Below are positions 32,590-59,230 of a stretch of 64,000 nucleotides of DNA, in pieces; the stretch's first letter is position 1; every line of letters begins with the position of its first letter. The position numbers were made by a program, and so were the translations under genes. Source of the DNA: Candidatus Kaiserbacteria bacterium RIFCSPHIGHO2_01_FULL_54_36 (GTDB taxonomy: Bacteria > Patescibacteriota > Minisyncoccia > Phycocordibacterales > UBA2100); contig MFKV01000007.1 in the NCBI GenBank assembly GCA_001781105.1, positions 4,912-68,911 on the forward strand, in the 5' to 3' direction. Under the pieces are notes generated by a model that saw only the letters and a list, made by a program, of their open reading frames with translations, was not told the DNA's origin and did not search any database.

Positions 32590-32725
32590 ATGCCCGGCAG
32601 GACAATTTCGAATTGCTTTGTATGAATATTCATCAACGTATGAAAGAAAGACTAACCAATGATTTTTGCAAAACGTTCGCAGTTGAAACTGCAGCAGGAA
32701 TTATTCGAAATTGTACTAGCCGGGT
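32590..32725 (+). mobile_element. MITE-like intergenic repeat, copy 1 (136 nt, imperfect ~22-nt terminal inverted repeats)
   Basis: Starts ATGCCCGGCAGGACAATTTCGAAT 2 nt after the ABC ATPase stop. Ends ATTCGAAATTGTACTAGCCGGGT, immediately followed by the permease ATG. Confidence 0.7.
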
Positions 32726-33526
32726 ATGAACAAGCAACTGAAACGCTGGAACCCATGGTGGACACTTACTGACCTCCTCACGATGGTGGAGCGCAACATC
32801 ACCGGCTATCGCCGGGTGCCGCAGCTCCTTATCTTTTCTACCATTCAGCCAGTCATGTTCCTTTTGCTTTTTACCTATGTCTTCGGAGGCGCGATCCGCA
32901 CCGGCGGGAGTAGCTCGTACATCAATTATCTTTTGCCTGGTATCCTTGCGCAAAGTGCGGTCTTCGGAGCGATACAGACGGGTGTGGGCCTCACCGTGGA
33001 TCTCTCACGGGGACTCATCGATCGTTTCCGCTCGCTGCCGATGGCACGAAGTGCCGTCCTTTTGGGCCGCACGATCGCAGACATGCTGCGTAATGTGTTC
33101 GTGATACTCCTCATGCTCCTCGTGGGCTACCTGATAGGTTTTCGACTGGAAGGTACGATTTCAGACGCCGTCTCTGCGATCGCGATCCTGCTTCTCTTTG
33201 GTTTTGCCTTCTCCTGGGTCTCGGCCTGCATCGGCATGGTCGTCAAGAATACAGAGACAGCACAGGTCGCCGGATTCATCTGGGTATTCCCACTCGTTTT
33301 CGCAAGCGCCGTTTTCGTCCCCGTCGAATCTATGCCCGACTGGTTGCAGCATTTTGCAAAGTGGAATCCGGTGACGATCACAGTGAATGTAGTGCGCGCG
33401 CTTCTTCTAGATTCTTCGAGCGCGCAAGACACCGCCACGTACGCGTGGGAAGCACTTGCCTGGATCGCGGTCATACTCATCGTCTTCATGCCTTTGGCAA
33501 TTTGGCTGTATCGCAAAAGTGAATAA
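32726..33526 (+). CDS. ABC-2 type transporter permease
   Basis: Six TM segments and ABC-2 family architecture, directly downstream of the ATPase. Confidence 0.8.
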   Translation: MNKQLKRWNPWWTLTDLLTMVERNITGYRRVPQLLIFSTIQPVMFLLLFTYVFGGAIRTGGSSSYINYLLPGILAQSAVFGAIQTGVGLTVDLSRGLIDRFRSLPMARSAVLLGRTIADMLRNVFVILLMLLVGYLIGFRLEGTISDAVSAIAILLLFGFAFSWVSACIGMVVKNTETAQVAGFIWVFPLVFASAVFVPVESMPDWLQHFAKWNPVTITVNVVRALLLDSSSAQDTATYAWEALAWIAVILIVFMPLAIWLYRKSE

Positions 33527-33669
33527 GCCGGGTGTGCCCGGCAGGACAATTTAGCATAGCTTTTGTCGTGGCCTAGTTCGTACAGCGTTATATCTATTTC
33601 GGTCTCCGGAAATGTAACGTACCGCGAATATCCTGCAGCAGAGACCATGCCAAATTGTACTAGCCGGGT
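33527..33669 (+). mobile_element. MITE-like intergenic repeat, copy 2 (diverged interior, conserved ends)
   Basis: Begins immediately after the permease stop with GCCGGGTGTG-CCCGGCAGGACAATTT. Ends CCAAATTGTACTAGCCGGGT followed by GTG. Confidence 0.6.
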
Positions 33670-33718
33670 GTGCATACTGCCGTTCCCAACAGGGGGGCAG
33701 TTTGGTATTCTTCAGCCC

Positions 33719-33925: not shown

Positions 33926-33968
33926 TTCGGTTCACCATTGTGCGCAGGATTTGGTATCATGAAGCCTC

Positions 33969-35435
33969 ATGTCGGAGCAGGATATACGCGCTGAGCGGCT
34001 GAAGAAGCTCGAACTTCTGAAGGAGGCGGGCATGGAGGCATACCCGACTTCAACCGCGCGCGACGCTTCCATCGCGGATTTTTTGAGCGTTTTCAAGGAA
34101 TTAGAAACAAGCGGCCGGCAATCAGTGATTGCCGGCCGCGTCATGTCTTTGCGCGGGCAGGGCGGTATTACATTTGTTGACCTCTTTGATGGAACAGGTA
34201 AAGTCCAACTTGTTCTCCAAAAGTCCAAATCCGATGAGGTGACACCTCATCGGTTCCAACTGTTTGTAGATGTCGTTGATATGGGAGATCTTATCGAAGC
34301 CGCTGGTGTTGCGTACGTCACGAAGCGCGGAGAGCAATCACTTAAAGTACAGGAGTGGAAAATGCTTGCAAAGTCCCTGTTGCCGATCCCGACAGAGCAT
34401 TTTGGTATCAAAGACGAAGAACTGATCCTGCGCCAGCGATACCTCGACATTCTTCTCAACGAAGACGTGCGCAAAATGTTCGAACGCCGCGCGCGATTCT
34501 GGCAGGCGGCACGAGAGTTCTATCTCTCTCGGGGATTTCTCGAGGTCGAGACGCCGGTTCTCGAAACGACGCCAGGCGGCGCCGACGCGCGTCCATTCAA
34601 GACGCACCACCACGCACTCGATATCGATGTGTACCTGCGCATTTCCGTAGGCGAGCTATGGCAGAAAAAACTCCTCATCGCTGGATTTCCGAAAGTATTC
34701 GAGATCGGGCGCGTATTCCGCAACGAAGGCCAATCCCGCGAGCACTTGCAGGATTACACACAACTTGAATCATATGAGGCATATGCTGATGCGAAAGCAG
34801 GGATAGAATTCCTCAAAGAGTTCTATCGGTATATTGTGAAAGAAACGTACGGGCAGTACACTTTCAAGATAGGCGAGCACGAAGGTGATTTTGCAGCAGA
34901 GTGGCCATCCATTGATTTTTGCGAAACGATACAAAAGGAGTACGGCATAGACCCGGTTACCGTTTCTGAGGACGACGCCATTGCCGCGGCGAAGAGTGCG
35001 GGCGTGCAATTCGGCGAAGCGCCAAATAAACTGCGAGCATTAGACGGATTATGGAAACTCATACGCAAGAAGATCTCTGGCCCGGCATTTCTGACTGGCG
35101 TACCGGTATTCCTCGAGCCTCTGGCAAAGCGCGTTCCAAGCAATCCAAATATCGTGGATCGTATTCAGGTGATCCTCGCTGGCTCCGAAATGGGGAAGGG
35201 GTACAGTGAGCTCAACGACCCGCAGGATCAACGCGCGCGCTTCGAGGAGCAGCAGAAACTGCGCGACGCGGGCGACGACGAAGCGCAGCGCCTCGACGAG
35301 GATTACATTCGGGCGATGGAGTACGGCATGCCGCCAGCTTTCGGTTTCGGCGTCTCTGAGCGACTTTTCTCGTTCCTCGAAAATCGCCCGGCCCACGAGG
35401 CGCAACTGTTCCCACTTGTACGCCCGAAAAAGTAG
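33969..35435 (+). CDS. lysS: lysine--tRNA ligase (class II)
   Basis: N-terminal OB-fold anticodon-binding domain and class II motifs (motif 2 FRNEG, motif 3 GFGxGxxRL). Confidence 0.9.
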   Translation: MSEQDIRAERLKKLELLKEAGMEAYPTSTARDASIADFLSVFKELETSGRQSVIAGRVMSLRGQGGITFVDLFDGTGKVQLVLQKSKSDEVTPHRFQLFVDVVDMGDLIEAAGVAYVTKRGEQSLKVQEWKMLAKSLLPIPTEHFGIKDEELILRQRYLDILLNEDVRKMFERRARFWQAAREFYLSRGFLEVETPVLETTPGGADARPFKTHHHALDIDVYLRISVGELWQKKLLIAGFPKVFEIGRVFRNEGQSREHLQDYTQLESYEAYADAKAGIEFLKEFYRYIVKETYGQYTFKIGEHEGDFAAEWPSIDFCETIQKEYGIDPVTVSEDDAIAAAKSAGVQFGEAPNKLRALDGLWKLIRKKISGPAFLTGVPVFLEPLAKRVPSNPNIVDRIQVILAGSEMGKGYSELNDPQDQRARFEEQQKLRDAGDDEAQRLDEDYIRAMEYGMPPAFGFGVSERLFSFLENRPAHEAQLFPLVRPKK

Positions 35436-49972: not shown

Positions 49973-50428
49973 ATGCGCAGTACACTGTATACGTTTCTAG
50001 TTGTGGGAATCATCCTGTTGTGCGCGGGGGCCTACTACTTCCACCGGACTGCACAAGCCAATAAGCTCTCGCACATCGAATCTCTTGCCGCTACGCGGAA
50101 TGTTCCAGCAACCGTATGCGAGTTTACGGAGGGAGATTTTGAAGGCGCCCGTGGGGGACTATTGTATGTGCGCAATGCACGCATCGTGTTGCACACGATG
50201 TACGTCGAAGGTAATTACGCGGGACGTCTCCACGTCTTGATCGAACCCGACAGTACGTACTTTATCGATCCTGCGACCATGGACACGATACCGATCGGTT
50301 TGAGTGCCGAAGAACAGATCACACTGATCAACGATGAGATCTTAAGACCCACGTGGAAATGCTCACCGTGGTGGTTTCCCGACGATTCAATATTTGATAT
50401 CCCGAAACCAGCACCCGAAGAAGAGTGA
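49973..50428 (+). CDS. hypothetical membrane-anchored protein
   Basis: N-terminal TM helix LYTFLVVGIILLCAGAYYF. No domain recognised. Confidence 0.45.
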   Translation: MRSTLYTFLVVGIILLCAGAYYFHRTAQANKLSHIESLAATRNVPATVCEFTEGDFEGARGGLLYVRNARIVLHTMYVEGNYAGRLHVLIEPDSTYFIDPATMDTIPIGLSAEEQITLINDEILRPTWKCSPWWFPDDSIFDIPKPAPEEE

Positions 50429-50440
50429 TATAATTTTGGT

Positions 50441-51412
50441 ATGACACGCACGAGCGTCGGCATTTTGCGCGGCGGGACATCGAGCGAATACAACCTCTCG
50501 CTCAAATCCGGCGCTGCGATGATGGCGGCGCTTCCTGAGGATCGCTTCGACACGCGCGATATTTTCATAGACAAGCGAGGGTACTGGCACATGAGAGGCC
50601 AGCCCGTGGACGCTGCCCGCGCGCTTTCGCAAATTGACGTCGTTCTCAATGCACTTCACGGCGGAGTGGGCGAAGATGGCACAGTACAGCGCATCGTGGA
50701 GCGCGCGGGCGTCGCTCACGCCGGCGCCTCACCCCTTGCCTCGGCCATTGCCCTAAATAAGATCCGCGCTCGCGAGATCTTGCAAAGAGCTGGCATTCGT
50801 ATGCCACGCGCTGTCTCATTTTCATTGAACAATGACCTCGACACCGGAGAGATGGCACGTTTTGTGTTCTCCCAATTTGGCCCGCCGTATGTCGTGAAGC
50901 CCGCAAGCGAAGGTGCATCATTTGGCATCCGGATCGCCATGACGCCGCTCGAATTACCCGATACCTTGGGTGACACGCTCGATGCATATGGCTCCGCGCT
51001 CGTCGAAGAATACATGCGCGGGCAAGAGGCGAGCGTGGGCGTTATCGAGAATTTCCGCGGAGAAGATCTCTACGCGCTTCCGCCGGCGCACGTCATCGCT
51101 CCCGAGGGCGCTTGGATGCTACACCCGATCCATCACGAAGAGGGAACGTTACGCCACCTGGTCCCGAGCCAATTTTCCCACTCGGAGAAACAGGCGCTTG
51201 CCGACCTCGCGCGCGCGGCACACCGCGTGCTCGGCCTCGGGCATTTCTCTCGCGCTGACATCATCCTCACCCCGCGTGCCCCGTACCTTTTGGAAATGAA
51301 CGCCATACCCGGCCTTTACCCAGGCGCATCATTCCCGCCAATGCTCGAATCGGTCGGCTCCTCCGTGCGCGAATTCCTAGAACATGCTATAAGTCTTGCG
51401 AAGGGTAGATGA
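50441..51412 (+). CDS. ddl: D-alanine--D-alanine ligase
   Basis: ATP-grasp fold with the Ddl N-domain and conserved E..G.E...N motifs. Confidence 0.9.
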   Translation: MTRTSVGILRGGTSSEYNLSLKSGAAMMAALPEDRFDTRDIFIDKRGYWHMRGQPVDAARALSQIDVVLNALHGGVGEDGTVQRIVERAGVAHAGASPLASAIALNKIRAREILQRAGIRMPRAVSFSLNNDLDTGEMARFVFSQFGPPYVVKPASEGASFGIRIAMTPLELPDTLGDTLDAYGSALVEEYMRGQEASVGVIENFRGEDLYALPPAHVIAPEGAWMLHPIHHEEGTLRHLVPSQFSHSEKQALADLARAAHRVLGLGHFSRADIILTPRAPYLLEMNAIPGLYPGASFPPMLESVGSSVREFLEHAISLAKGR

Positions 51413-51454
51413 GAGGGGTCAGCCCCCGTCACCAGAAAAGCTCTTGTGATTTGT

Positions 51455-51706
51455 ATGCACTACGTGTATCTTCTCAAGAGTGAGAAAGACGGTCTGCTGT
51501 ATATTGGTTATACAAATGATCTGAAAAGGCGTTTCGCGGAGCACAACAGTGGCCTCAGCAAGGCAACAAAACCGAGAGCACCTTTTCAGCTCGTTTATTA
51601 CGAAGCATACAAATCACGGGCTGATGCATTGTTTAGAGAGAAAAATCTGAAACGATACTCCAGAAGCTATCAAGAGTTGAAAAAGCGAGTAAAGGGTAGC
51701 ATCTAG
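51455..51706 (+). CDS. stand-alone GIY-YIG nuclease-domain protein (second paralogue)
   Basis: VYLLKSEKDGLLYIGYTNDLKRRFAEHN motif. Confidence 0.7.
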   Translation: MHYVYLLKSEKDGLLYIGYTNDLKRRFAEHNSGLSKATKPRAPFQLVYYEAYKSRADALFREKNLKRYSRSYQELKKRVKGSI

Positions 51707-51722: not shown

Positions 51723-51794
51723 GGGCCAGTAGTTCAGTGGTAGAACGTCTCATTTGCAATGAGAAGGTCGGGGGTTCGATTCCTCTCTGGTCCA
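51723..51794 (+). tRNA. tRNA-Ala (anticodon TGC)
   Basis: Manual cloverleaf: acceptor GGGCCAG/CUGGUCC with the G3:U70 alanine identity pair, anticodon loop TTTGCAA, T-loop TTCGATT, discriminator A. No encoded CCA. Confidence 0.8.
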
Positions 51795-51797
51795 CAA

Positions 51798-54032
51798 ATG
51801 AAAAATCTCTACGAGCATATCGCAACCGTTGCGAAAGCTGAGCCGAAAAAGGTAGCATTGATTGGAACAGATGAGAAGGGAAATAGCGTCGAGGAGATCA
51901 CGTATGCAGAACTGCTAGAGAAAATACAGGCAGCGGCGGCAGAGCTAAAAGAGTTAGGACTTGAAAGAGGTGACAGGATAGCGCTCGCATTTCGTAATTC
52001 CCCCGTGCTCCTTATATGGAGCTGGGCGGCTTGGGCGAGTGGGATCGTGACGGTGCCAATGGATACCAAGCGCGATACTCCCGAACTTTACGAATACAAG
52101 ATTAATCTCAACAAAGCCAAAGTCCTTATCCTCGAGCGCGGCATCCAGGCAGTGAAGCTCCCCGGCGTCCGCATCAAAGTCCATACTGAATTTGATTCAC
52201 GGCAAGGCAAGGCCTTGCCGTACCCTGTTGGCTGGGAAGGGGGGCTTGGGCATCAGGCGCTTGTTCTTTTCACTTCTGGCACGACCGGACACCCGAAAGG
52301 TGCCATGCTTTCGCTTGAGAATCTCATTGTGAACGCCGAGGGAATCCGTGAATGGCTGCGCATCACGGGCGACGATACATTTCTCGTCAACCTTCCGCTC
52401 CACCACATCAACTCCACCACCTTTTGTCTTTCTGTACTCCTCGCGGGAGGCACCATCGCTATTCCGCCCAACTATTCCAATTCGCATTTTTGGCATCAGA
52501 TGGGAAAGACAGGTGCGACTATCTCGTCGGTCGTGCAATCGATTGTATTCGACCAGCTCCACCGCAAGGCGGAGTTCGAGGCCCTGAAAGACAAGATCAA
52601 ACTCAACAGGATCCAGATCGGTTCGGCGCCGGTCGTCGCGCAATCGGTGCAAGAATTCAAAAAGCAATTCGGCATCCCGCTTTATCAAGGTTACGGTCAG
52701 ACGGAAACAGCGCTTCGCGTCACGGGCGTACCCATGGACATTCCGGATCCACTGTATGCGCAGTTGGTTGACGAGAATTCGATAGGTACTCCGATGGCAT
52801 GGGCAGACCTGCAAATCACCGATGACGAAGGCAAGATACTGGGCGAGGGCGGTGAGGGTGAGCTGGTGGTGAAAGGCCCTGCGGTGATGGAAGGATATCT
52901 CGGGCGCGAGCCGGCGTTCCGCGACGGATATTTTCTCACGGGCGATATCGGCTACTACAAAACAATTGATGGCAGGAAATACTTTTATCTCAAGGGCCGG
53001 AAGCGCGAGATCATCATCAAGGGCGGCGTCAATATTTCACCGGTTGCGGTAGAGAACTCCCTGAAGCGAATTTCCCCGGACATCGAGCAAGTCCACGTGG
53101 TTGCTGTGCCAGATGAGCGCTACGGTGAGGAAGCCGGTGCTGTCATCTCGTGGAAAGAGGGAATTGACGAAGATCGTGCGAAGCGGCAGCTCAAAACTGC
53201 GCTTCTACTCGGCTCTCCATATATCAGTGCATACGAGACGCCCAAGTACATTACCTCGCTTCCAGTCGCAGAGCTCCCGATGACTTCCACAGGCAAAGTC
53301 CAGCGCAGCGTCCTCAAAACACAGCTTCCATACGAAAAATTCGAATCGATCTACGGCCTCCTCAAGACTACTGACTATCGCTTCACGGTTTTGCATCGCT
53401 ATTCGAGGTGGCAACAAGCGTCCCTCGATCTCCACAACCAATGTTGGGCGCCGCTTAGAATGGACAAAGGGGAATATGACAAATTCATAACCCGCCCACT
53501 GACTATTCTTGCCGCCAATCCCGATGAGTCTCTTGCCGGACAGATCGCCGTTGTTCGTACCAATCTTTCCGAAGCAGAGATCCTCAAGAAAACATATTCA
53601 GAGTTGGTTGCCGAAAGCTTCGACAGGACAGGCAATACGCTTGTGTGTGTTTCTATTTGCAGCGCCGACTATTCGCCAAAGACAATTCCTGATGTAACTA
53701 AGCATCCAAGCGCAGACGACGTTCGCGCGTATGTAGAAGCAGGCACCGACCCAGTAATGAAATTCCATCAGAAGCCAAAAGGTGGGCTCTCGGAAGGTGC
53801 GAAACTTATAGATGTTATCGAAAATGGCCGGCCGGAAGACAGAAGCTCGCTGGGGTACAACATGCTCCTCAAATATCCTGAGCCCTCGGATAACGTTGCG
53901 ATAACTCCCGGGGCCCCGATCTCCAACCAGCTTATCGAAATCGTTTTGCTCATCGCGCGCGATCTCGGCATCAAAAACGTCTACGCCTACTCTCGCCCCG
54001 GTGGCTTGGCTGCGTATTTATCCCGAGCGTAG
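51798..54032 (+). CDS. AMP-dependent synthetase/ligase (adenylate-forming) fused to a ~240-aa C-terminal domain of unknown function
   Basis: TSGTTGHPKG and YGQTE adenylation motifs in the first ~500 aa; the C-terminal part has no recognised motif. The ATG lies 3 nt after the tRNA-Ala discriminator. Confidence 0.75.
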   Translation: MKNLYEHIATVAKAEPKKVALIGTDEKGNSVEEITYAELLEKIQAAAAELKELGLERGDRIALAFRNSPVLLIWSWAAWASGIVTVPMDTKRDTPELYEYKINLNKAKVLILERGIQAVKLPGVRIKVHTEFDSRQGKALPYPVGWEGGLGHQALVLFTSGTTGHPKGAMLSLENLIVNAEGIREWLRITGDDTFLVNLPLHHINSTTFCLSVLLAGGTIAIPPNYSNSHFWHQMGKTGATISSVVQSIVFDQLHRKAEFEALKDKIKLNRIQIGSAPVVAQSVQEFKKQFGIPLYQGYGQTETALRVTGVPMDIPDPLYAQLVDENSIGTPMAWADLQITDDEGKILGEGGEGELVVKGPAVMEGYLGREPAFRDGYFLTGDIGYYKTIDGRKYFYLKGRKREIIIKGGVNISPVAVENSLKRISPDIEQVHVVAVPDERYGEEAGAVISWKEGIDEDRAKRQLKTALLLGSPYISAYETPKYITSLPVAELPMTSTGKVQRSVLKTQLPYEKFESIYGLLKTTDYRFTVLHRYSRWQQASLDLHNQCWAPLRMDKGEYDKFITRPLTILAANPDESLAGQIAVVRTNLSEAEILKKTYSELVAESFDRTGNTLVCVSICSADYSPKTIPDVTKHPSADDVRAYVEAGTDPVMKFHQKPKGGLSEGAKLIDVIENGRPEDRSSLGYNMLLKYPEPSDNVAITPGAPISNQLIEIVLLIARDLGIKNVYAYSRPGGLAAYLSRA

Positions 54033-54146
54033 TCGAGGGATTTGTCCACAAAGAAAGATTGAAGCTTTTGATGCGTCTGGTATATTGAAAGCACCTAGAG
54101 TTCCTTAATCAGCTTGATAGCTGGTCAACCCACAAGGAGGCCCAAG

Positions 54147-54332
54147 ATGGCCCAAGCCCCCACACGTACCCCACCATGCGCCGATTCGGCAGTTCCCGGC
54201 ATCTACGGGAGAACTTCCGGTGACGCCAAAAACTCGCAGGCAAATACACCTACAGCGAGCCCATCGTCCGTTGTTCCTCACGTTGAGGACGTCAACCAAA
54301 TGGACCCTAAAGCCAGGGCCGACCTTTGCTGA
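54147..54332 (+). CDS. small Pro/Thr/Ala/Ser-rich ORF (61 codons) with a near-perfect Shine-Dalgarno
   Basis: AGGAGG at 54135..54140 followed by cccaag and ATG. Low-complexity peptide ending ...ARADLC. Confidence 0.35.
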   Translation: MAQAPTRTPPCADSAVPGIYGRTSGDAKNSQANTPTASPSSVVPHVEDVNQMDPKARADLC

Positions 54333-54572
54333 GCACTGTTGCTCGGCCTTGCACCTTCTGTACCTTCATCAACGCCACCATTTGCTTTTTGCTTATGGTG
54401 GTGTTCATTTTTCCATATTTTGAGCCATTTTTGCCGATGTCCACCTACATCATGAAAATGTGTTGCGTATTTTCATGGATGCGATAGGATTGCCGCGAAT
54501 GTAAGTTTTCCATATTAAAACACGTGGAAAGGTTGGTTTACATCATTTTAGACGAACACACACAAAAGGATC

Positions 54573-54917
54573 ATGGCTAAGAAGCTATACGTCGGAGGAT
54601 TGCCTTACGCAACGACCGACTCTGAGCTCAAAGACGCTTTCTCGCAAGCGGGAGCCGTCGAGTCTGCCGTTATCATCATGGATAAGATGAGCGGCCGATC
54701 GAAGGGTTTCGGCTTCGTCGAGATGTCTTCCGACGAGGATGCACAGAAGGCGATTGAGATGTGGAATGGAAAAGATTTCGGCGGACGCTCCCTCACGGTA
54801 AATGAGGCGCGCCCGATGGAAGAGCGCCCACGACGCGATTTCCGCGGCGGTGGAGGCGGGGGTGGTGGTGGATACGGTGGCGGACGCGGCGGAAACGGCG
54901 GCGGACGCAGCTGGTAA
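54573..54917 (+). CDS. RNA-binding protein with an RRM domain and a Gly-rich tail
   Basis: RNP2 LYVGGL, RNP1 KGFGFVEM, and a C-terminal RGG/GGGYGGG tail. Confidence 0.9.
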   Translation: MAKKLYVGGLPYATTDSELKDAFSQAGAVESAVIIMDKMSGRSKGFGFVEMSSDEDAQKAIEMWNGKDFGGRSLTVNEARPMEERPRRDFRGGGGGGGGGYGGGRGGNGGGRSW

Positions 54918-55397: not shown

Positions 55398-55534
55398 ATG
55401 CCCGGCAGGACAATTTCGAATCGCCTTGTATGAATATTCACCAGCGTGTGATGGAAAAAAGTGCGACAGTTATTTTGCAAACCAGAAATAGTCGAATCTG
55501 CGGCAGGAATTATTCGAAATTGTACTAGCCGGGT
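55398..55534 (+). mobile_element. MITE-like intergenic repeat, copy 3 (137 nt)
   Basis: Starts ATGCCCGGCAGGACAATTTCGAAT and ends ATTCGAAATTGTACTAGCCGGGT, followed by the ATG of the next gene. About 85% identical to copy 1. Confidence 0.7.
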
Positions 55535-56689
55535 ATGCGCTCGCTCGCACTTCACAGGTTCCTTTTACGCTTCGCACTCGCGGGGGCAAATGTCTTTGCC
55601 TGGATATTCATATTTCAATTTTTCTACCTCATCGAGCCCGATATCGGGCACGCGCTCGCGCGCGTCGCGCTGCTCTACGCGCTTTCGCAGGTGATCACCT
55701 GCCTTTTGACGCCCTATGCCGTGCAAACGCTCCGCGACGGAGCCCGCCCGCTTTTGCTTATCGCCGTTCTTTTCGCGTCGTCTGCGCTGGTCCTTCTTGG
55801 AGGCACCTTCGCAGCGTATTGGAATGCTTCTTACGCGTCGGTGGGTATCGCGGCGTATGCTATAGCGCTTGGCGCGTACCGTGCGTTCTATTTCGTCCCG
55901 TATGAGATAGAAGTGCGTGGGAATGCTAAGCGACCCCGCAGCAGATCCGCAGCTTCGGAACTTCTCATCGCTCTCGCACCGTTCATCGCAGGCATTTTTA
56001 TTGTAAGCACAACACATGGCCCCGTCTGGGTCTTGTATATAGCCGCCGGGCTCATTGCGCTTTCCGCTATCCCACTGCTATACCTGCGCGATATACACGA
56101 AGGCTTTACTTGGGGGTATCGCGAAACGTTCGAGCGACTTTTCCTTCCGTCGCATCGCCCGCTCCTTCGCGAGGCCATTATGGAGGGAATTTCAGGCGCG
56201 GCGTTGCTCCTCTTCTGGCCTATCGCCGTGTTCCTCATTGCAGGATGGTCATATGGGATGGTCGGCATAATTCTCTCACTCACCTTTCTCATCGCGATCC
56301 TGGGCCGCAAACTTGTGCGCAGAGGTATCCGCCGAGCCGGTTTACATCGATCACAGATCCTGAACGCGACCTTCGCCGCCACTCCATGGTTGTTCCGCAT
56401 CGTCGTCGGCAACCCGTTGGGTGTCATATTTGCCGACTCGTATTTCTATACGACGACGCCCCGGCGCATAGGCGTTGATGCCCTTGTATTCGAGCAGGCC
56501 GCCGACGCAGGCTCATACGTGGATGAATACACTGCGCTGAAAGAGATGGGGCTAGCGCTCGGAAGGATCGCGGCATGTATCCTCGTTGCAGTGGTTTCTC
56601 TCTATGTATCGCTCCCGATCGCGCTCGTCGCAGTATTTCTCTTGGCAGCACTCGCCTCCGTCGTCGTCGCTCTGCGCCCGCGTTCATAA
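55535..56689 (+). CDS. hypothetical polytopic membrane protein (about 10-12 TM, transporter-like)
   Basis: Hydrophobicity pattern. Its start codon is supplied at the end of the repeat. Confidence 0.5.
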   Translation: MRSLALHRFLLRFALAGANVFAWIFIFQFFYLIEPDIGHALARVALLYALSQVITCLLTPYAVQTLRDGARPLLLIAVLFASSALVLLGGTFAAYWNASYASVGIAAYAIALGAYRAFYFVPYEIEVRGNAKRPRSRSAASELLIALAPFIAGIFIVSTTHGPVWVLYIAAGLIALSAIPLLYLRDIHEGFTWGYRETFERLFLPSHRPLLREAIMEGISGAALLLFWPIAVFLIAGWSYGMVGIILSLTFLIAILGRKLVRRGIRRAGLHRSQILNATFAATPWLFRIVVGNPLGVIFADSYFYTTTPRRIGVDALVFEQAADAGSYVDEYTALKEMGLALGRIAACILVAVVSLYVSLPIALVAVFLLAALASVVVALRPRS

Positions 56690-58033: not shown

Positions 58034-58189
58034 CGCTGTTTCTCCCTGATTGCGTTCCCCGATGTTGGGTGTACAGCCCGCGATTTTTCTTGTGTGAGTC
58101 TGCGTCAAACGCTAACAGTCGAAAGATGAACGAATTATGAATTATTTAGTGGATAAAACAGCAGAGTAGCGGTGTGATAGAATCCGCAC

Positions 58190-59230
58190 ATGGAATGGCT
58201 CGTGATCGCACTTCTTGTGGCAAATTTGGCGCTCTTGGCGTTCCTTTTTATGCGCAAACCTGCTGCACCCCTACAAGATCAGAGTGGGATGATTATGTTG
58301 CAGCAGCAGATGCAGGATCTTTCAAAGACACTCGACGCGCGAGTCGCAGAATCTTCAAAAACCATGCAAGAGAATTCTCATCGGCAATTCTCTGAGTCCG
58401 CTCGTCTTATTAAGGAAATCACCCAAGAAGTCACTTCGGTAAAGGAGATCGGGAGACAGACGGGAAAATTTGCTGAGCAACTTCAAAACTTACAAGATAT
58501 CCTCAAGAACCCGAAACAACGTGGCATCCTCGGCGAATATTACCTCGAGACCGTGCTCAAAAATGTCCTCCCTCCCGGCATGTACCAAATGCAGTACCCC
58601 TTCAAAAACGGCGAGATTGTCGACGCCGCCGTCTTTATCAACGAGAAAATTGTCCCTATCGATTCCAAGTTCTCACTTGATAACTACAACCGTCTTGTCC
58701 ATGCTCCCGATGCGGAGAGACCTGCATTTGAAAAAGCTTTCGTGAACGATCTCAAGCTTCGCATTCAGGAAACGGCTAAATACATTCGACCAGAGGAGAA
58801 TACAATGGACTTCGCCTTCATGTTTATCCCATCGGAAGGTATCTATTACGATTTGCTCACCAATCAGGTGGGTGCAGGCGAGGAAGAAAACCTTATCCAA
58901 CGTGCGGCCGGGAAGTACAAGGTCATCATTGTTTCGCCGACGTCATTCCTAGCCTACCTTCAGACGGTCATGCAGGGCTTAAAGGCTCTTCAAATAGAGA
59001 AACGCGCCGAAGAGATCCAAAAGCGTATAGGTGAACTCGTTAAACACATCGAATCCACGAACTCTTTCTATATAAAATTAGGTGCGGCGCTTGTAACTGT
59101 TGTATCTCATTATAATTCTGGCCACAAAGAACTTGCAAAAATCGACAAGGACGTTTATCGGATATCAGGTGACAGGGCAGAAGTTGAGCCCATCCTTCTA
59201 GAGAAGCCCAACCTCTCAATCGACGATTAA
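58190..59230 (+). CDS. rmuC: DNA recombination protein RmuC
   Basis: N-terminal TM helix, coiled-coil, and RmuC nuclease-like C-domain. Confidence 0.85.
   Translation: MEWLVIALLVANLALLAFLFMRKPAAPLQDQSGMIMLQQQMQDLSKTLDARVAESSKTMQENSHRQFSESARLIKEITQEVTSVKEIGRQTGKFAEQLQNLQDILKNPKQRGILGEYYLETVLKNVLPPGMYQMQYPFKNGEIVDAAVFINEKIVPIDSKFSLDNYNRLVHAPDAERPAFEKAFVNDLKLRIQETAKYIRPEENTMDFAFMFIPSEGIYYDLLTNQVGAGEEENLIQRAAGKYKVIIVSPTSFLAYLQTVMQGLKALQIEKRAEEIQKRIGELVKHIESTNSFYIKLGAALVTVVSHYNSGHKELAKIDKDVYRISGDRAEVEPILLEKPNLSIDD

What the first reader, a model, noticed from the sequence alone, without database searches (positions are those of the whole stretch)
51723..54332. Adenylating enzyme fused to an unknown C-terminal domain starts 3 nt after tRNA-Ala and is followed by a 61-codon ORF with a perfect SD
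The 744-aa protein has a canonical ANL adenylation core (TSGTTGHPKG, YGQTE) and a ~240-aa C-terminal extension with no motif I recognise. Its ATG lies 3 nt after the tRNA-Ala discriminator base with no Shine-Dalgarno, implying co-transcription with, and processing from, the tRNA. Immediately downstream, 54147..54332 encodes a low-complexity peptide of 61 aa, rich in Pro, Thr, Ala and Ser and ending in Cys, behind AGGAGG-N6-ATG, by far the strongest RBS in the window. An adenylating or acyl-transfer enzyme, a tRNA and a small peptide in one unit is the kind of arrangement seen in peptide-modification or aminoacyl-transfer systems. ddl lies just upstream. It is speculative but uncharacterised.
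Basis: partly seen in the sequence, partly recalled or inferred. Interest (0 to 1): 0.6.

Follow-up and report, generated by a model that had tools for sequence, protein, structure and literature searches.

The report
CoA ligase fused to GNAT-like decarboxylase
A conserved enzyme of ultra-small bacteria and archaea joins an acid-activating (CoA ligase) domain to an unannotated domain that resembles malonyl-thioester decarboxylases; the tRNA in front of it probably only supplies its mRNA start, and the small peptide gene behind it is a separate unit.

Summary
tRNA-Ala(UGC) occupies 51723..51794, and an ATG follows 3 nt later and opens a 744-aa ORF. That ORF has a full ANL adenylation core plus about 240 unannotated residues. 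A 61-codon ORF with AGGAGG-N6-ATG follows.

The C-terminal domain gives a confident AlphaFold model (pLDDT 93) with a GNAT fold. Its best structural matches, and its only sequence matches in the PDB, are the GNAT-like decarboxylase domains of SxtA, CurA and GphF. The CurA/malonyl-CoA-decarboxylase His, Tyr and Ser/Thr positions are conserved.

The fusion occurs across Patescibacteria and in DPANN archaea. I read it as a bifunctional acid-CoA ligase and acyl-thioester decarboxylase with an unknown substrate; the activity is inferred, not shown.

The tRNA is not a functional partner. It appears only in the Kaiserbacteria clade, on either strand, or is absent. Where it lies on the same strand, the ATG sits 2-4 nt after the discriminator base. 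This genome also shows clear leaderless-promoter signatures, so tRNA 3' processing probably creates a near-leaderless mRNA.

The small ORF has its own conserved promoter, leader and SD in about 25 related loci, but its sequence is hypervariable. It is probably a real, separate gene. The peptide-modification reading is not supported.

The parts
51723..51794 (+). tRNA-Ala(UGC). CCA is not encoded; the discriminator base is A51794.
   Evidence: ARAGORN; Rfam RF00005, 71.4 bits; sequence read.
51795..51800 (+). Junction CAA followed by the ATG start codon of the enzyme gene. There is no SD and no room for a promoter. This is the proposed RNase Z-type cleavage site that would leave a mRNA with a 3-nt leader.
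   Evidence: The same 2-4-nt junction is seen in L001, L004, L005, L008, L011 and in L062, L080, L082, L099.
51798..54032 (+). 744-aa ANL / GNAT-like fusion gene (stop codon included).
   Evidence: More than 100 full-length homologues, about 690-810 aa and 52-80% identical.
51828..53297 (+). ANL adenylation / CoA-ligase module (residues 11-500). Motifs present: TSGTTGHPKG (159-168), YGQTE (299-303), TGD, GRxKxxIIKGGxNISP, and the A10 lysine K500.
   Evidence: Pfam PF00501 2.8e-64 and PF13193; PDB sequence matches and alignments.
53298..53357 (+). Flexible linker, residues about 501-520.
   Evidence: pLDDT 58-68 over the first 20 residues of the model.
53355..54029 (+). GNAT-like (CurA/SxtA/GphF-type) domain, residues about 520-744. 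Conserved residues in protein numbering: C617, S619, C621, H657, Y693, S732-R733-P734.
   Evidence: AlphaFold model pLDDT 93; Foldseek against PDB; profile against PDB sequences; conservation.
54059..54086 (+). Promoter-like TTGAAG-16-TATATT (with TG before the -10 box) for the small-ORF unit.
   Evidence: The TTGAc-17-TAnAnT boxes align across relatives.
54100..54125 (+). Leader: GTTCCTTAATC, the window's variant of the conserved GTTCGTTCATC, followed by the small palindrome AGCTTGATAGCT.
54135..54140 (+). Shine-Dalgarno AGGAGG, 6 nt before the ATG.
   Evidence: duplex energy -11.4 kcal/mol.
54147..54332 (+). 61-aa Pro/Thr/Ala/Ser-rich small ORF. It belongs to a hypervariable but positionally conserved small-protein family and is a separate unit from the enzyme gene.
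50441..51706 (+). Upstream genes on the same strand: ddl (50441..51412, with TGATATAAT 6 nt before its ATG) and an 86-aa GIY-YIG gene (51446..51706). Together they are the likely source of the transcript that reads through the tRNA.
   Evidence: No terminator-like site was found between 51300 and 51800.

Best explanation
The 744-aa protein is probably a bifunctional enzyme. The N-terminal ANL module (residues 1-500) would adenylate a small polar carboxylic acid, most simply a malonate-type dicarboxylate, and ligate it to CoA. The C-terminal GNAT-like module (about 520-744), joined by a flexible linker, would then decarboxylate the beta-carboxy-acyl thioester. It would use the His/Ser-Thr/Tyr machinery known from CurA, GphF and SxtA GNAT-like domains and from malonyl-CoA decarboxylase. 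The product would be acetyl-CoA or a related short acyl-CoA. This amounts to MatB plus MatA chemistry in one chain, conserved in Patescibacteria and DPANN archaea.

Shown: domain identities, fold, the conserved catalytic-type residues, and the taxonomic spread.
Inferred: CoA as the acceptor, the decarboxylase activity, and the substrate class.

Expression in this genome. The gene has no promoter or SD of its own. It is transcribed through tRNA-Ala from upstream. Cleavage at the tRNA 3' end would leave a mRNA with a 3-nt leader, which would be translated as a leaderless-type message. This organism appears to use that mode widely. The tRNA is a punctuation mark, not a substrate. The 61-codon ORF is a separate small gene with its own promoter.
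For: Fold. The AlphaFold model of residues 501-744 has pLDDT 93 and pTM 0.88. The top Foldseek PDB hits are SxtA MT-decarboxylase 7uci (1e-7), CurA GNAT_L 2ref/2ree (1.5e-6 and 1.4e-5) and GphF GNAT-like decarboxylase 6mfc (7e-6). Ordinary N-acetyltransferases score only about 1e-2. Malonyl-CoA decarboxylases 4ksf and 2ygw are also listed.

Sequence. Profiles of the domain searched against all PDB sequences match SxtA (E 0.0016) and CurA (0.077) at the top, and with the A4 profile return only those two. They share the motif DPxxxFH..GA..x8..RPxD..G..L..Y.

Catalytic residues. In those alignments H657 falls on CurA His389 and Y693 on Tyr419. The C617-x-S619-x-C621 strand falls on the Thr355 strand. 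PMC3701320 describes His389/Thr355 as the decarboxylase dyad and Tyr419 as the residue that holds the His. The same paper says canonical GNATs carry Tyr at the His position. H657, Y693 and C617 are invariant, and S619 is at least 90% conserved, across bacterial and archaeal members. They are largely kept in stand-alone homologues as well.

ANL module.
- All core motifs are intact.
- The closest solved relatives include oxalate-CoA ligases (9.5e-45, 2.9e-43) and the malonyl-CoA synthetase MatB (4e-39), together with feruloyl-/fatty-acyl-CoA synthetases.
- The pocket motif LPLHHINSTT and the Q in YGQTE are polar and near-invariant.

Genomic context is CoA-centred.
- A stand-alone homologue lies directly after an MFS transporter and a family III CoA-transferase that is most similar to dicarboxylate CoA-transferases.
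- In 9 loci the gene sits in the order PPAT/dephospho-CoA-kinase fusion, GreA, ANL-GNAT.
- In 5-8 loci tdh and kbl follow it; those two enzymes produce acetyl-CoA.

Expression. The tRNA-ATG gap of 2-4 nt is conserved in about 10 loci. An extended -10 box, TGnTAnnnT, ends 6-11 nt before the ATG in 9 of 59 genes, against about 0.15 expected. SD use is weak, with a median of -2.65 kcal/mol.
Against: - No activity has been measured for any member of the family.
- Sequence similarity to CurA and SxtA is marginal (E 1e-3 to 1e-1). Foldseek TM-scores are only 0.42-0.48.
- The register of the Thr355-equivalent strand is uncertain by 2 residues: it could be C617, S619 or C621.
- The characterised GNAT-like decarboxylases listed in PMC11685415 are described as carrier-protein dependent, and no ACP gene is seen near this gene.
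- The domain carries an extra C-terminal helix-strand-YSRPGG element that is absent from CurA and has no assigned role.
- The ANL module scores far below the curated cut-off for malonyl-CoA synthase (203 bits against 558) and for every other named ligase.
- The oxalate-binding His319 of AAE3 is Leu here.
- No source of malonate-type acids is evident for these organisms.
- The gene-neighbourhood evidence comes from sub-clades and could reflect inherited synteny alone. No neighbour is conserved across the whole family.
- The tRNA-processing and leaderless-translation steps rest on sequence only.
Confidence: 0.5

Rival explanations
1. Ligase plus acyltransferase. The ANL module makes an acyl-CoA (or acyl-AMP) and the GNAT-like domain transfers the acyl group to an amine or hydroxyl acceptor such as a cell-envelope sugar, a lipid or an amino acid. 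It would work like an N-acyl amino acid synthase, or like Aas, where an ANL domain is fused to an acyltransferase.
For: The fold is GNAT, and most GNATs are acyltransferases. In several sub-clades the neighbours are glycosyltransferases, DegT aminotransferases, hexapeptide acetyltransferases and a carbamoyltransferase, which suggests surface-glycan modification. In this window ddl lies upstream. The C-terminal YSRPGGLA fits the GNAT motif-A pattern R-x-x-G-x-A (this is my own reading).
Against: No Pfam acetyltransferase model matches, even at E 0.1. Canonical N-acetyltransferases are far weaker structural matches than the decarboxylase domains. The position of the canonical general-acid Tyr is an invariant His, as in CurA and MCD. 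No acceptor-related neighbour is conserved across the family.
Confidence: 0.22
2. The C-terminal domain is a catalytically silent GNAT-like module, like the pseudo-GNAT of AprA. It would serve as a CoA- or acyl-CoA-binding, regulatory or oligomerisation domain of an ordinary acyl-CoA synthetase that supplies these organisms with acyl-CoA.
For: The ANL core is complete and highly conserved at 52-80% identity. The gene is linked to CoA-biosynthesis genes. That GNAT-like domains can lose activity in PKS loading modules is my own background knowledge.
Against: The residues that are invariant across bacteria, archaea and stand-alone homologues are exactly those aligned to the CurA catalytic His and Tyr and to the Thr strand. 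Stand-alone copies of the domain exist, which argues that it has an activity of its own.
Confidence: 0.12
3. Enzyme, tRNA-Ala and the downstream peptide form one peptide-modification or aminoacyl-transfer system. Either there is a Fem/MprF-like use of Ala-tRNA, or the small protein is adenylated and ligated. Many of the small-protein homologues end in Gly-Gly or Gly-Ala.
For: The three elements are adjacent in this window. The small ORF is positionally conserved next to the enzyme gene in about 25 Kaiserbacteria-clade loci. Several homologues end in ..FLDGG..LNGG..FLDGA or ..PRGGA, and these tails are written with different codons.
Against: - tRNA orientation and presence vary within the clade, and the tRNA is absent elsewhere.
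- The domain is a single GNAT-like module, not a Fem or DUF2156 double domain; the L-PGS structure ranks only 38th.
- The small ORF has its own promoter and leader.
- It is absent in L011 and in every locus below about 64% identity, where the enzyme is still conserved.
- The window's own peptide ends in ..ADLC, not GG.
- The whole uvrC-ddl-ANL-RRM block is syntenic in this clade, so adjacency carries little information.
Confidence: 0.04

Closest known systems
GNAT-like decarboxylase domains of polyketide-synthase loading modules (CurA GNAT_L, GphF, SxtA DC)
   Same: These are the best structural matches and the only sequence matches in the PDB. They share the DPxxxFH...GA...RPxD...Y motif. The His389, Tyr419 and Thr355-strand equivalents are conserved.
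   Different: Those domains sit inside PKS modules next to an ACP and are described as acting on carrier-protein thioesters. Here the domain is fused to a free-standing ANL ligase with no ACP or KS nearby. It carries a KPKGG insertion and an extra C-terminal helix-strand-YSRPGG element. It occurs in organisms with minimal metabolism.
MatB (malonyl-/methylmalonyl-CoA synthetase) plus MatA / malonyl-CoA decarboxylase (MCD)
   Same: The proposed two-step chemistry is the same: an ANL ligase makes a malonyl-type CoA thioester, and a GNAT-fold His-Ser/Thr decarboxylase removes CO2. MatB is among the closest solved ANL relatives, and MCD structures appear among the fold hits.
   Different: MatB and MatA are separate proteins. 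MCD has an N-terminal helical domain and large inserts. The ANL module here is not a MatB orthologue (203 bits against a cut-off of 558). No natural fusion turned up in the literature search.
Pat/PatZ-type protein acetyltransferases (acyl-CoA-synthetase-like domain fused to GNAT)
   Same: A CoA-thioester-handling synthetase-like domain and a GNAT domain lie in one polypeptide. This comparison rests on my own background knowledge.
   Different: In Pat the synthetase-like part is of the NDP-forming type, not ANL. Its GNAT is a canonical lysine acetyltransferase. Here the canonical Tyr position is His, and no acetyltransferase Pfam model matches.
tRNA punctuation of mitochondrial transcripts; bacterial tRNA-mRNA co-transcripts such as the tufB operon
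   Same: An mRNA is released from a precursor by tRNA end-processing. In mitochondria the released mRNAs are leaderless, as proposed here.
   Different: This is a single bacterial gene whose start codon lies 2-4 nt from the tRNA 3' end. The tufB comparison is from background knowledge: that mRNA keeps a normal leader and SD. The arrangement here is facultative, because close relatives have the tRNA inverted and give the gene its own upstream region.

Membership tests
ANL superfamily (class I adenylate-forming enzymes) | AMP-binding and AMP-binding_C domains score above the curated cut-offs. | tested here: met
   PF00501 scores 217.8 bits (cut-off 29.9). PF13193 scores 27.6 bits (cut-off 24.5).
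ANL superfamily (class I adenylate-forming enzymes) | Core motifs A3 (T/SSGTTGxPKG), A5 (YGxTE), A7 (TGD), A8 (GRxxD/KxIxxxGxNxxP) and the A10 catalytic Lys. | tested here: met
   TSGTTGHPKG at 159-168, YGQTE at 299-303, LTGDIG, GRKREIIIKGGVNISP, and PMTSTGK500VQR. All are read and are conserved in the family consensus.
ANL superfamily (class I adenylate-forming enzymes) | The second half-reaction uses CoA, i.e. the enzyme is a CoA ligase rather than an acyl-AMP ligase or amide synthetase. | not testable with these tools
   There is only indirect support. The nearest solved relatives are CoA ligases, and the gene is linked to CoA-biosynthesis genes in 9 loci.
GNAT-like decarboxylases (CurA GNAT_L / GphF / SxtA DC; MCD catalytic domain) | A GNAT fold whose closest structural neighbours are these decarboxylase domains. 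| tested here: met
GNAT-like decarboxylases (CurA GNAT_L / GphF / SxtA DC; MCD catalytic domain) | A catalytic His (CurA His389) replaces the canonical GNAT Tyr and is held by a conserved Tyr (CurA Tyr419). | tested here: met
   H657 and Y693 align to His389 and Tyr419 in the HMMER alignment. Their roles are taken from PMC3701320. Both are invariant in 38 bacterial and archaeal sequences.
GNAT-like decarboxylases (CurA GNAT_L / GphF / SxtA DC; MCD catalytic domain) | A Ser/Thr partner of the dyad (CurA Thr355, MCD Ser329) on the neighbouring strand. | tested here: inconclusive
   The strand LVC617-V-S619-I-C621-S aligns with CurA VVAVT355LC. The register differs between methods: S619 by HMMER, C621/Thr by MAFFT with the stand-alone homologues, and C617 if the shared DYSP motif is used as anchor. 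All three side chains face the same side of the strand and all are conserved.
GNAT-like decarboxylases (CurA GNAT_L / GphF / SxtA DC; MCD catalytic domain) | Decarboxylation of a malonyl-type thioester. | not testable with these tools
   This requires an enzyme assay.
GNAT-like decarboxylases (CurA GNAT_L / GphF / SxtA DC; MCD catalytic domain) | A PKS loading-module setting, adjacent to an ACP and KS. | tested here: not met
   The domain is fused to an ANL ligase. No ACP or PKS family appears among 146 neighbouring proteins or in the clustering of neighbours. I therefore place it as a new branch or architecture, not as a PKS loading domain.
Canonical GNAT N-acyltransferases | A match to an acetyltransferase family model, and the canonical general-acid Tyr. 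| tested here: not met
   No Pfam or NCBIfam hit for residues 501-744 at E up to 0.1-1. The Tyr position is His.
Aminoacyl-tRNA-dependent transferases (FemXAB, MprF C-domain/DUF2156, L/F-transferase) | A tandem double-GNAT architecture and a family-model match. | tested here: not met
   There is a single module of about 225 aa and no Pfam hit. The L-PGS structure 4v36 ranks only 38th, at E 3e-2.
Aminoacyl-tRNA-dependent transferases (FemXAB, MprF C-domain/DUF2156, L/F-transferase) | An association with the tRNA that is conserved with the enzyme.
   The tRNA lies on either strand, lies at a distance, or is absent within the clade. It is absent in all loci below 64% identity.
MatB malonyl-CoA synthetase (NCBIfam PRK07514) | A score above the curated cut-off. 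| tested here: not met
   202.9 bits against a cut-off of 558.
Oxalyl-CoA synthetase (AAE3 type) | The oxalate-binding residues Ser289, His319 and Lys500. | tested here: not met
   The equivalents are S276, L306 and K500, so the specificity-determining His319 is Leu (alignment; residue roles from PMC8905533).
RiPP-like precursor plus modifying enzyme | A precursor peptide with a conserved recognition (leader) region that co-occurs with the enzyme across the family. | tested here: not met
   The window peptide has no significant tblastn hit in 52 loci. The peptides are hypervariable. The small ORF is present only in the clade at 64% identity or above and is absent in L011.
tRNA-punctuated, near-leaderless mRNA | Same strand, no promoter or SD between the tRNA and the ATG, a gap of a few nt, and recurrence in relatives. 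| tested here: met
tRNA-punctuated, near-leaderless mRNA | A processed 5' end at the tRNA 3' boundary, and translation of that RNA. | not testable with these tools
   This needs 5'-end mapping or ribosome profiling. There is indirect support: extended -10 boxes end 6-11 nt before the ATG in 9 of 59 genes.

The most novel reading that the evidence does not exclude
The hypervariable small proteins encoded just downstream (49-125 aa, often disordered, many ending in Gly-Gly or Gly-Ala) could be substrates of the ANL/GNAT-like enzyme. The ANL module would adenylate, or thioesterify with CoA, the protein's C-terminal carboxylate. The GNAT-like domain would then transfer or process it. That would be a ubiquitin/Pup-like or peptide-activation system built on an ANL enzyme in Kaiserbacteria.
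Probability: 0.03. Interest if true: 0.85.

Novelty: new variant of a known kind. Interest (0 to 1): 0.55.

Why it matters
Patescibacteria (CPR) and DPANN archaea have very small genomes and poorly understood carbon and CoA metabolism. This protein is 52-80% identical across Parcubacteria, which is unusually conserved for these lineages. It is also shared with DPANN archaea. Public records call it only 'acyl-CoA ligase' or 'hypothetical protein', and its C-terminal third has no family model.

If it is a one-chain ligase-decarboxylase, three things follow:
- It would define a third setting for the GNAT-like decarboxylase fold, outside PKS loading modules and malonyl-CoA decarboxylase.
- It would point to a salvage route from scavenged dicarboxylic acids to acetyl-/acyl-CoA in obligate symbionts.
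- It would give a concrete, easily assayed target.

Separately, the start codon sits 2-4 nt after a tRNA in a genome rich in leaderless-type promoters. That makes this a clean natural test case for whether tRNA 3' processing can create translatable leaderless mRNAs in bacteria.

Tried and rejected
- Pfam and NCBIfam on residues 501-744 and on the 61-aa peptide: no hits.
- Single-sequence phmmer of the C-terminal domain against the PDB: only noise.
- Rfam on the whole window (gathering threshold) and on 54000..54600 (E up to 1): nothing except the two tRNAs.
- The word-indexed homology search with the domain alone, or with the A2 profile, returned only gene fragments of the same family.
- The exhaustive representative search used a profile that still contained about 135 ANL C-lobe positions, so roughly half of the listed hits are ordinary ANL enzymes. 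Only hits covering profile positions above 140 were used.
- Contexts of stand-alone homologues were informative for L053 only. L054-L060 gave nothing consistent. The roughly 385-aa proteins next to some of them have no Pfam match.
- Substrate prediction from pocket residues: the oxalate signature is not kept, and the MatB comparison is uninformative. I could not find MatB carboxylate-binding residues in the accessible literature. The key GNAT-like-domain paper (PMC6949403) is not held.
- Literature searches for this fusion in Patescibacteria, and for any natural MatB-MCD fusion, found nothing.
- The contig with 99% identity (L120) ends inside the gene, so it could not be used to test selection on the small ORF.
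- The in-frame ATG at 51759 was rejected as the start. It lies in the tRNA anticodon arm, and the extra 13 residues have no counterpart in homologues.
- A uORF reading of the conserved leader was rejected because no frame is consistent across loci (by inspection).

Full report
1. The observation

ARAGORN and Rfam both find tRNA-Ala(UGC) at 51723..51794 (71.4 bits). The sequence shows the G3:U70 pair and discriminator A51794, then CAA, then ATG at 51798. The frame stays open to the stop at 54030..54032, giving 744 aa.

An in-frame ATG at 51759 lies inside the tRNA and would add 13 residues encoded by tRNA sequence. Homologues align from MKNLYEH onward. An independent public gene call on a 99%-identical contig uses the same ATG. 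I therefore take 51798 as the start.

The 17 nt upstream of the ATG are the tRNA acceptor and T arms. Their pairing with the anti-SD is -2.2 kcal/mol, so there is no SD.

Pfam finds AMP-binding at residues 11-368 and AMP-binding_C at 426-500. Neither Pfam nor NCBIfam finds anything in residues 501-744.

The small ORF at 54147..54332 is as described: 61 aa, AGGAGG-N6-ATG, ending in Cys. Its SD (-11.4 kcal/mol) is one of the three strongest among about 60 gene starts, not by far the strongest. A small GIY-YIG gene (51446..51706) lies between ddl and the tRNA.

2. The protein family

More than 100 full-length homologues were found. They are about 690-810 aa long, 52-80% identical, and cover the query almost end to end. 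Those that carry a name come from Candidatus Kaiserbacteria, Liptonbacteria, Paceibacterota, Minisyncoccia or the 'Patescibacteria group'. They are labelled only 'class I adenylate-forming enzyme', 'acyl-CoA ligase', 'long-chain acyl-CoA synthetase' or 'hypothetical protein'.

A scan of one genome per species returned 52 loci that encode the C-terminal domain. Nearly all carry it fused to the ANL module. They include Giovannoni-, Wildermuth-, Levyi-, Morani- and Beckwithbacteria, and also DPANN archaea (Woesearchaeota, Aenigmatarchaeota). The fusion is therefore old, conserved, and shared by the two radiations of ultra-small cells.

An exhaustive HMMER search gave 64 representative clusters below 1e-30. 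It also found a more distant set of stand-alone proteins of 240-395 aa that consist of this domain alone. These have no Pfam match and no name in any source.

3. The C-terminal domain

AlphaFold2 was run on residues 501-744 with a 48-sequence alignment. The model has pLDDT 93 and pTM 0.88. The first 20 residues are low-confidence, consistent with a linker.

Foldseek against the PDB puts four GNAT-like decarboxylase entries first:
- SxtA methyltransferase-decarboxylase (7uci), E 1e-7
- CurA loading GNAT_L (2ref), 1.5e-6
- GphF GNAT-like decarboxylase (6mfc), 7e-6
- CurA loading GNAT_L (2ree), 1.4e-5

Ordinary N-acetyltransferases follow at about 1e-2, and two malonyl-CoA decarboxylases are also in the list.

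Independently, a sequence profile of 38 bacterial and archaeal domains was searched against every PDB sequence. SxtA (E 0.0016) and CurA (0.077) were the top matches, above three unrelated hits with E values of 0.5 or more. A second profile that included the stand-alone homologues matched only SxtA and CurA. The shared motif is DPxxxFH(..)GAxxxxxxxxxRPxDxxxxGxxLxxY.

PMC3701320 states three relevant points. CurA His389 and Thr355 form the catalytic dyad for malonyl-thioester decarboxylation. His389 is held by Tyr419. The His occupies the position of the general-acid Tyr of canonical GNATs.

In the HMMER alignment, H657 of this protein falls on His389 and Y693 on Tyr419. Both are invariant. The strand L-V-C617-V-S619-I-C621-S aligns with CurA V-V-A-V-T355-L-C. 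The register differs by two residues between methods, so the partner could be S619, C621 (Thr in the stand-alone homologues) or C617. All three side chains face the same way and all are conserved.

The domain also has features that CurA lacks. One is a KPKGG insertion after the His, missing in one sub-clade. The other is a C-terminal helix-strand-YSRPGG element with invariant S732, R733 and P734.

I conclude that this is a new branch of the GNAT-like decarboxylase family with its catalytic-type residues intact. It is not an ordinary ligase C-lobe, and it is not a Fem/MprF-type double GNAT.

4. The ANL module

All core motifs are present, including the A10 lysine K500.

The closest solved relatives are:
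- a feruloyl-/fatty-acyl-CoA synthetase pair (3e-49)
- plant oxalate-CoA ligases (9.5e-45 and 2.9e-43)
- R. palustris MatB malonyl-CoA synthetase (4e-39)
- FadD13 and MenE

No NCBIfam model is reached at its curated cut-off; for example, malonyl-CoA synthase scores 203 bits against 558.

I mapped the AtAAE3 oxalate pocket (V215, H216, C288, S289, A313, M314, H319; PMC8905533) onto the alignment. The equivalents are I204, N205, G275, S276, G300, Q301 and L306. The oxalate-specific His is lost, so this is not an oxalyl-CoA synthetase.

The pocket motif LPLHHINSTTFCLS is nearly invariant and polar. I read that as favouring a small polar acid over a fatty acid. This is an inference only.

5. Genomic context across the family

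Clustering the neighbours of all loci found no universally conserved partner. Three sub-clade contexts nevertheless point to CoA thioester metabolism:
- In nine loci the order is: a fusion of pantetheine-phosphate adenylyltransferase (above the NCBIfam cut-off) with a DUF359 / GTP-dependent dephospho-CoA-kinase-like domain, then GreA, then this gene.
- In 5-8 loci the next genes are a threonine-dehydrogenase-like ADH and glycine C-acetyltransferase Kbl (586 bits against a cut-off of 460). Together these make acetyl-CoA.
- One stand-alone homologue follows an MFS transporter and a family III CoA-transferase most similar to dicarboxylate CoA-transferases. That is an alternative way of making the same kind of thioester.

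Other sub-clades show glycosyltransferases, DegT aminotransferases, a hexapeptide acetyltransferase and a carbamoyltransferase. This keeps an acyl-transfer role in envelope modification open as a rival.

6. Proposed mechanism

Acid + ATP gives acyl-AMP, and then with CoA gives a beta-carboxy-acyl-CoA; both steps belong to the ANL module. The GNAT-like module then decarboxylates it through H657, Y693 and the Ser/Cys strand to a shorter acyl-CoA. This is MatB/MatA logic in a single chain.

The domain identities and conserved residues are shown. The CoA acceptor, the decarboxylation and the substrate class are inferred. I put this at about 0.5.

7. The tRNA

Across 110 loci, tRNA-Ala(UGC) is found upstream only in the clade at 64% identity or above. 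The breakdown is:
- Same strand, ATG within a few nt: about 10 distinct loci. Counted from the discriminator base, the gaps are CAA, ATTT, CC (an encoded CCA overlapping the ATG), CAT, CA and CT.
- Same strand, 420-716 nt away: 3 loci.
- Opposite strand, 40-158 nt away, with its own TTGAAA-17-TATAAC promoter between the tRNA and the gene: about 9 loci.
- Absent, although at least 1.5 kb of upstream sequence is available: 8 loci.

The tRNA is therefore a syntenic neighbour, not a functional partner of the enzyme.

Where the tRNA is on the same strand, the gene has no room for a promoter or SD, and no -10-like box is present. Its mRNA must come from read-through of the tRNA. No terminator-like site lies between ddl and the tRNA.

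This genome uses SD weakly: the median is -2.65 kcal/mol, and only 15% of starts reach -6 or stronger. An extended -10 box, TGnTAnnnT, ends 6-11 nt before the ATG in 9 of 59 genes, including ddl. About 0.15 such cases are expected by chance. That is the signature of leaderless transcripts.

Cleavage after the discriminator base of a CCA-less tRNA would leave 5'-CAAAUG..., a near-leaderless mRNA. That RNase Z performs this cleavage is established knowledge for CCA-less tRNA genes, not something tested here. This is the most economical reading, and it resembles mitochondrial tRNA punctuation.

8. The small ORF

The window peptide has no significant homologue in any locus. The position, however, is conserved. 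In about 25 distinct loci of the clade at 64% identity or above, the region downstream of the enzyme gene holds, in order:
- a promoter-like TTGAc-17-TAnAnT, 30-80 nt after the stop codon (window 54059..54086)
- a conserved leader, (T)TGTTCGTTCATC (window variant at 54100)
- usually a short palindrome containing AATAG
- an SD
- an ATG opening a 49-125-aa ORF

This is supported.

The ORF sequences are hypervariable, but several motifs recur:
- C-terminal tails ..FLDGA..FLDGG..LNGG..LNS and ..P(R/E)GGA, written with different codons
- an internal AAA(V/I)S(G/D)R motif
- a Cys-rich subgroup

The window peptide ends in ..KARADLC.

L011 lacks the unit, and all more distant loci have other genes at this position.

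I conclude that this is probably a real, fast-evolving small-protein gene with its own promoter. It is not part of one unit with the enzyme gene. Its adjacency carries little information, because the whole uvrC-ddl-ANL-RRM-membrane-protein block is syntenic in this clade. A link between the GG/GA tails and an adenylating enzyme cannot be excluded, but nothing supports it beyond adjacency.

9. Verdict

Its central idea of a tRNA-plus-peptide-plus-enzyme system is not supported.

What is present is an uncharacterised, widely conserved CPR/DPANN enzyme architecture that combines two known enzyme kinds. It is expressed here through an unusual tRNA-punctuated, near-leaderless start. It is a new variant of a known kind, and of moderate interest.

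Noticed in passing
window 54059..54332; L001-L007, L010, L062-L095 just downstream of the enzyme gene: A positionally conserved small-gene unit: promoter-like boxes, the conserved leader TGTTCGTTCATC, an AATAG-containing palindrome, an SD and an ATG. It encodes hypervariable proteins of 49-125 aa. Many end in ..FLDGG, ..FLDGA, ..LNGG or ..PRGGA. One subgroup is Cys-rich. Function unknown; no Rfam or Pfam match.
   Followed up: partly
window, whole length; e.g. 50426..50443 (ddl), 58175..58192, 62160 (-), 33953..33971: An extended -10 box, TGnTAnnnT, ends 6-11 nt before the ATG in 9 of 59 gene starts, against about 0.15 expected. SD pairing is weak overall. Leaderless mRNAs seem to be a routine mode of expression in this Kaiserbacteria-like genome.
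   Followed up: partly
window 32590..32728 and 55398..55537 (partial copies at 33535..33563 and 33633..33673); also L001, L007, L083, L014: A repeated element of about 140 nt (81% identity between the two copies) ends exactly at the ATG of two unrelated membrane-protein genes. Terminal inverted repeats of 21-24 nt form a long stem that includes the start codon (MFE -46 kcal/mol, z about -5). There is no Rfam match. It is either a MITE or a 5'-UTR RNA element that sequesters the start codon.
   Followed up: partly
L002, L003, L006, L072, L074, L083-L086, L114 compared with window 51723..51794: The tRNA-Ala(UGC) gene keeps its place between ddl and the enzyme gene but is inverted in about half of the related genomes. 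In those genomes its own TTGAAA-17-TATAAC promoter faces away from the enzyme gene. The mechanism of the inversion was not examined.
   Followed up: partly
L024, L026, L100, L105, L106, L107, L109, L116 (two genes upstream of the enzyme gene): Bacterial (Patescibacteria) genes encode a fusion of pantetheine-phosphate adenylyltransferase with a DUF359 / archaeal-type GTP-dependent dephospho-CoA-kinase-like domain. That is the last two steps of CoA synthesis in one protein.
   Followed up: partly
window 54362..54572 and 54573..54917: The glycine-rich RRM RNA-binding protein gene is preceded by 100-200 nt that are conserved at the nucleotide level in all Kaiserbacteria loci (77-95% identity), while the rest of the spacer is not. 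This is likely a conserved 5' UTR or regulatory region.
   Followed up: no
window 51446..51706; L011, L120: The 86-aa stand-alone GIY-YIG gene lies between ddl and the tRNA only in this genome and a few relatives. It appears at other positions in L012 and L014, which suggests a mobile or variable insertion.
   Followed up: no
L032, L036, L040, L042, L046, L050: The full ANL / GNAT-like fusion is present in DPANN archaeal MAGs at 38-49% identity to the bacterial protein. This implies transfer between the two groups of ultra-small organisms.
   Followed up: no
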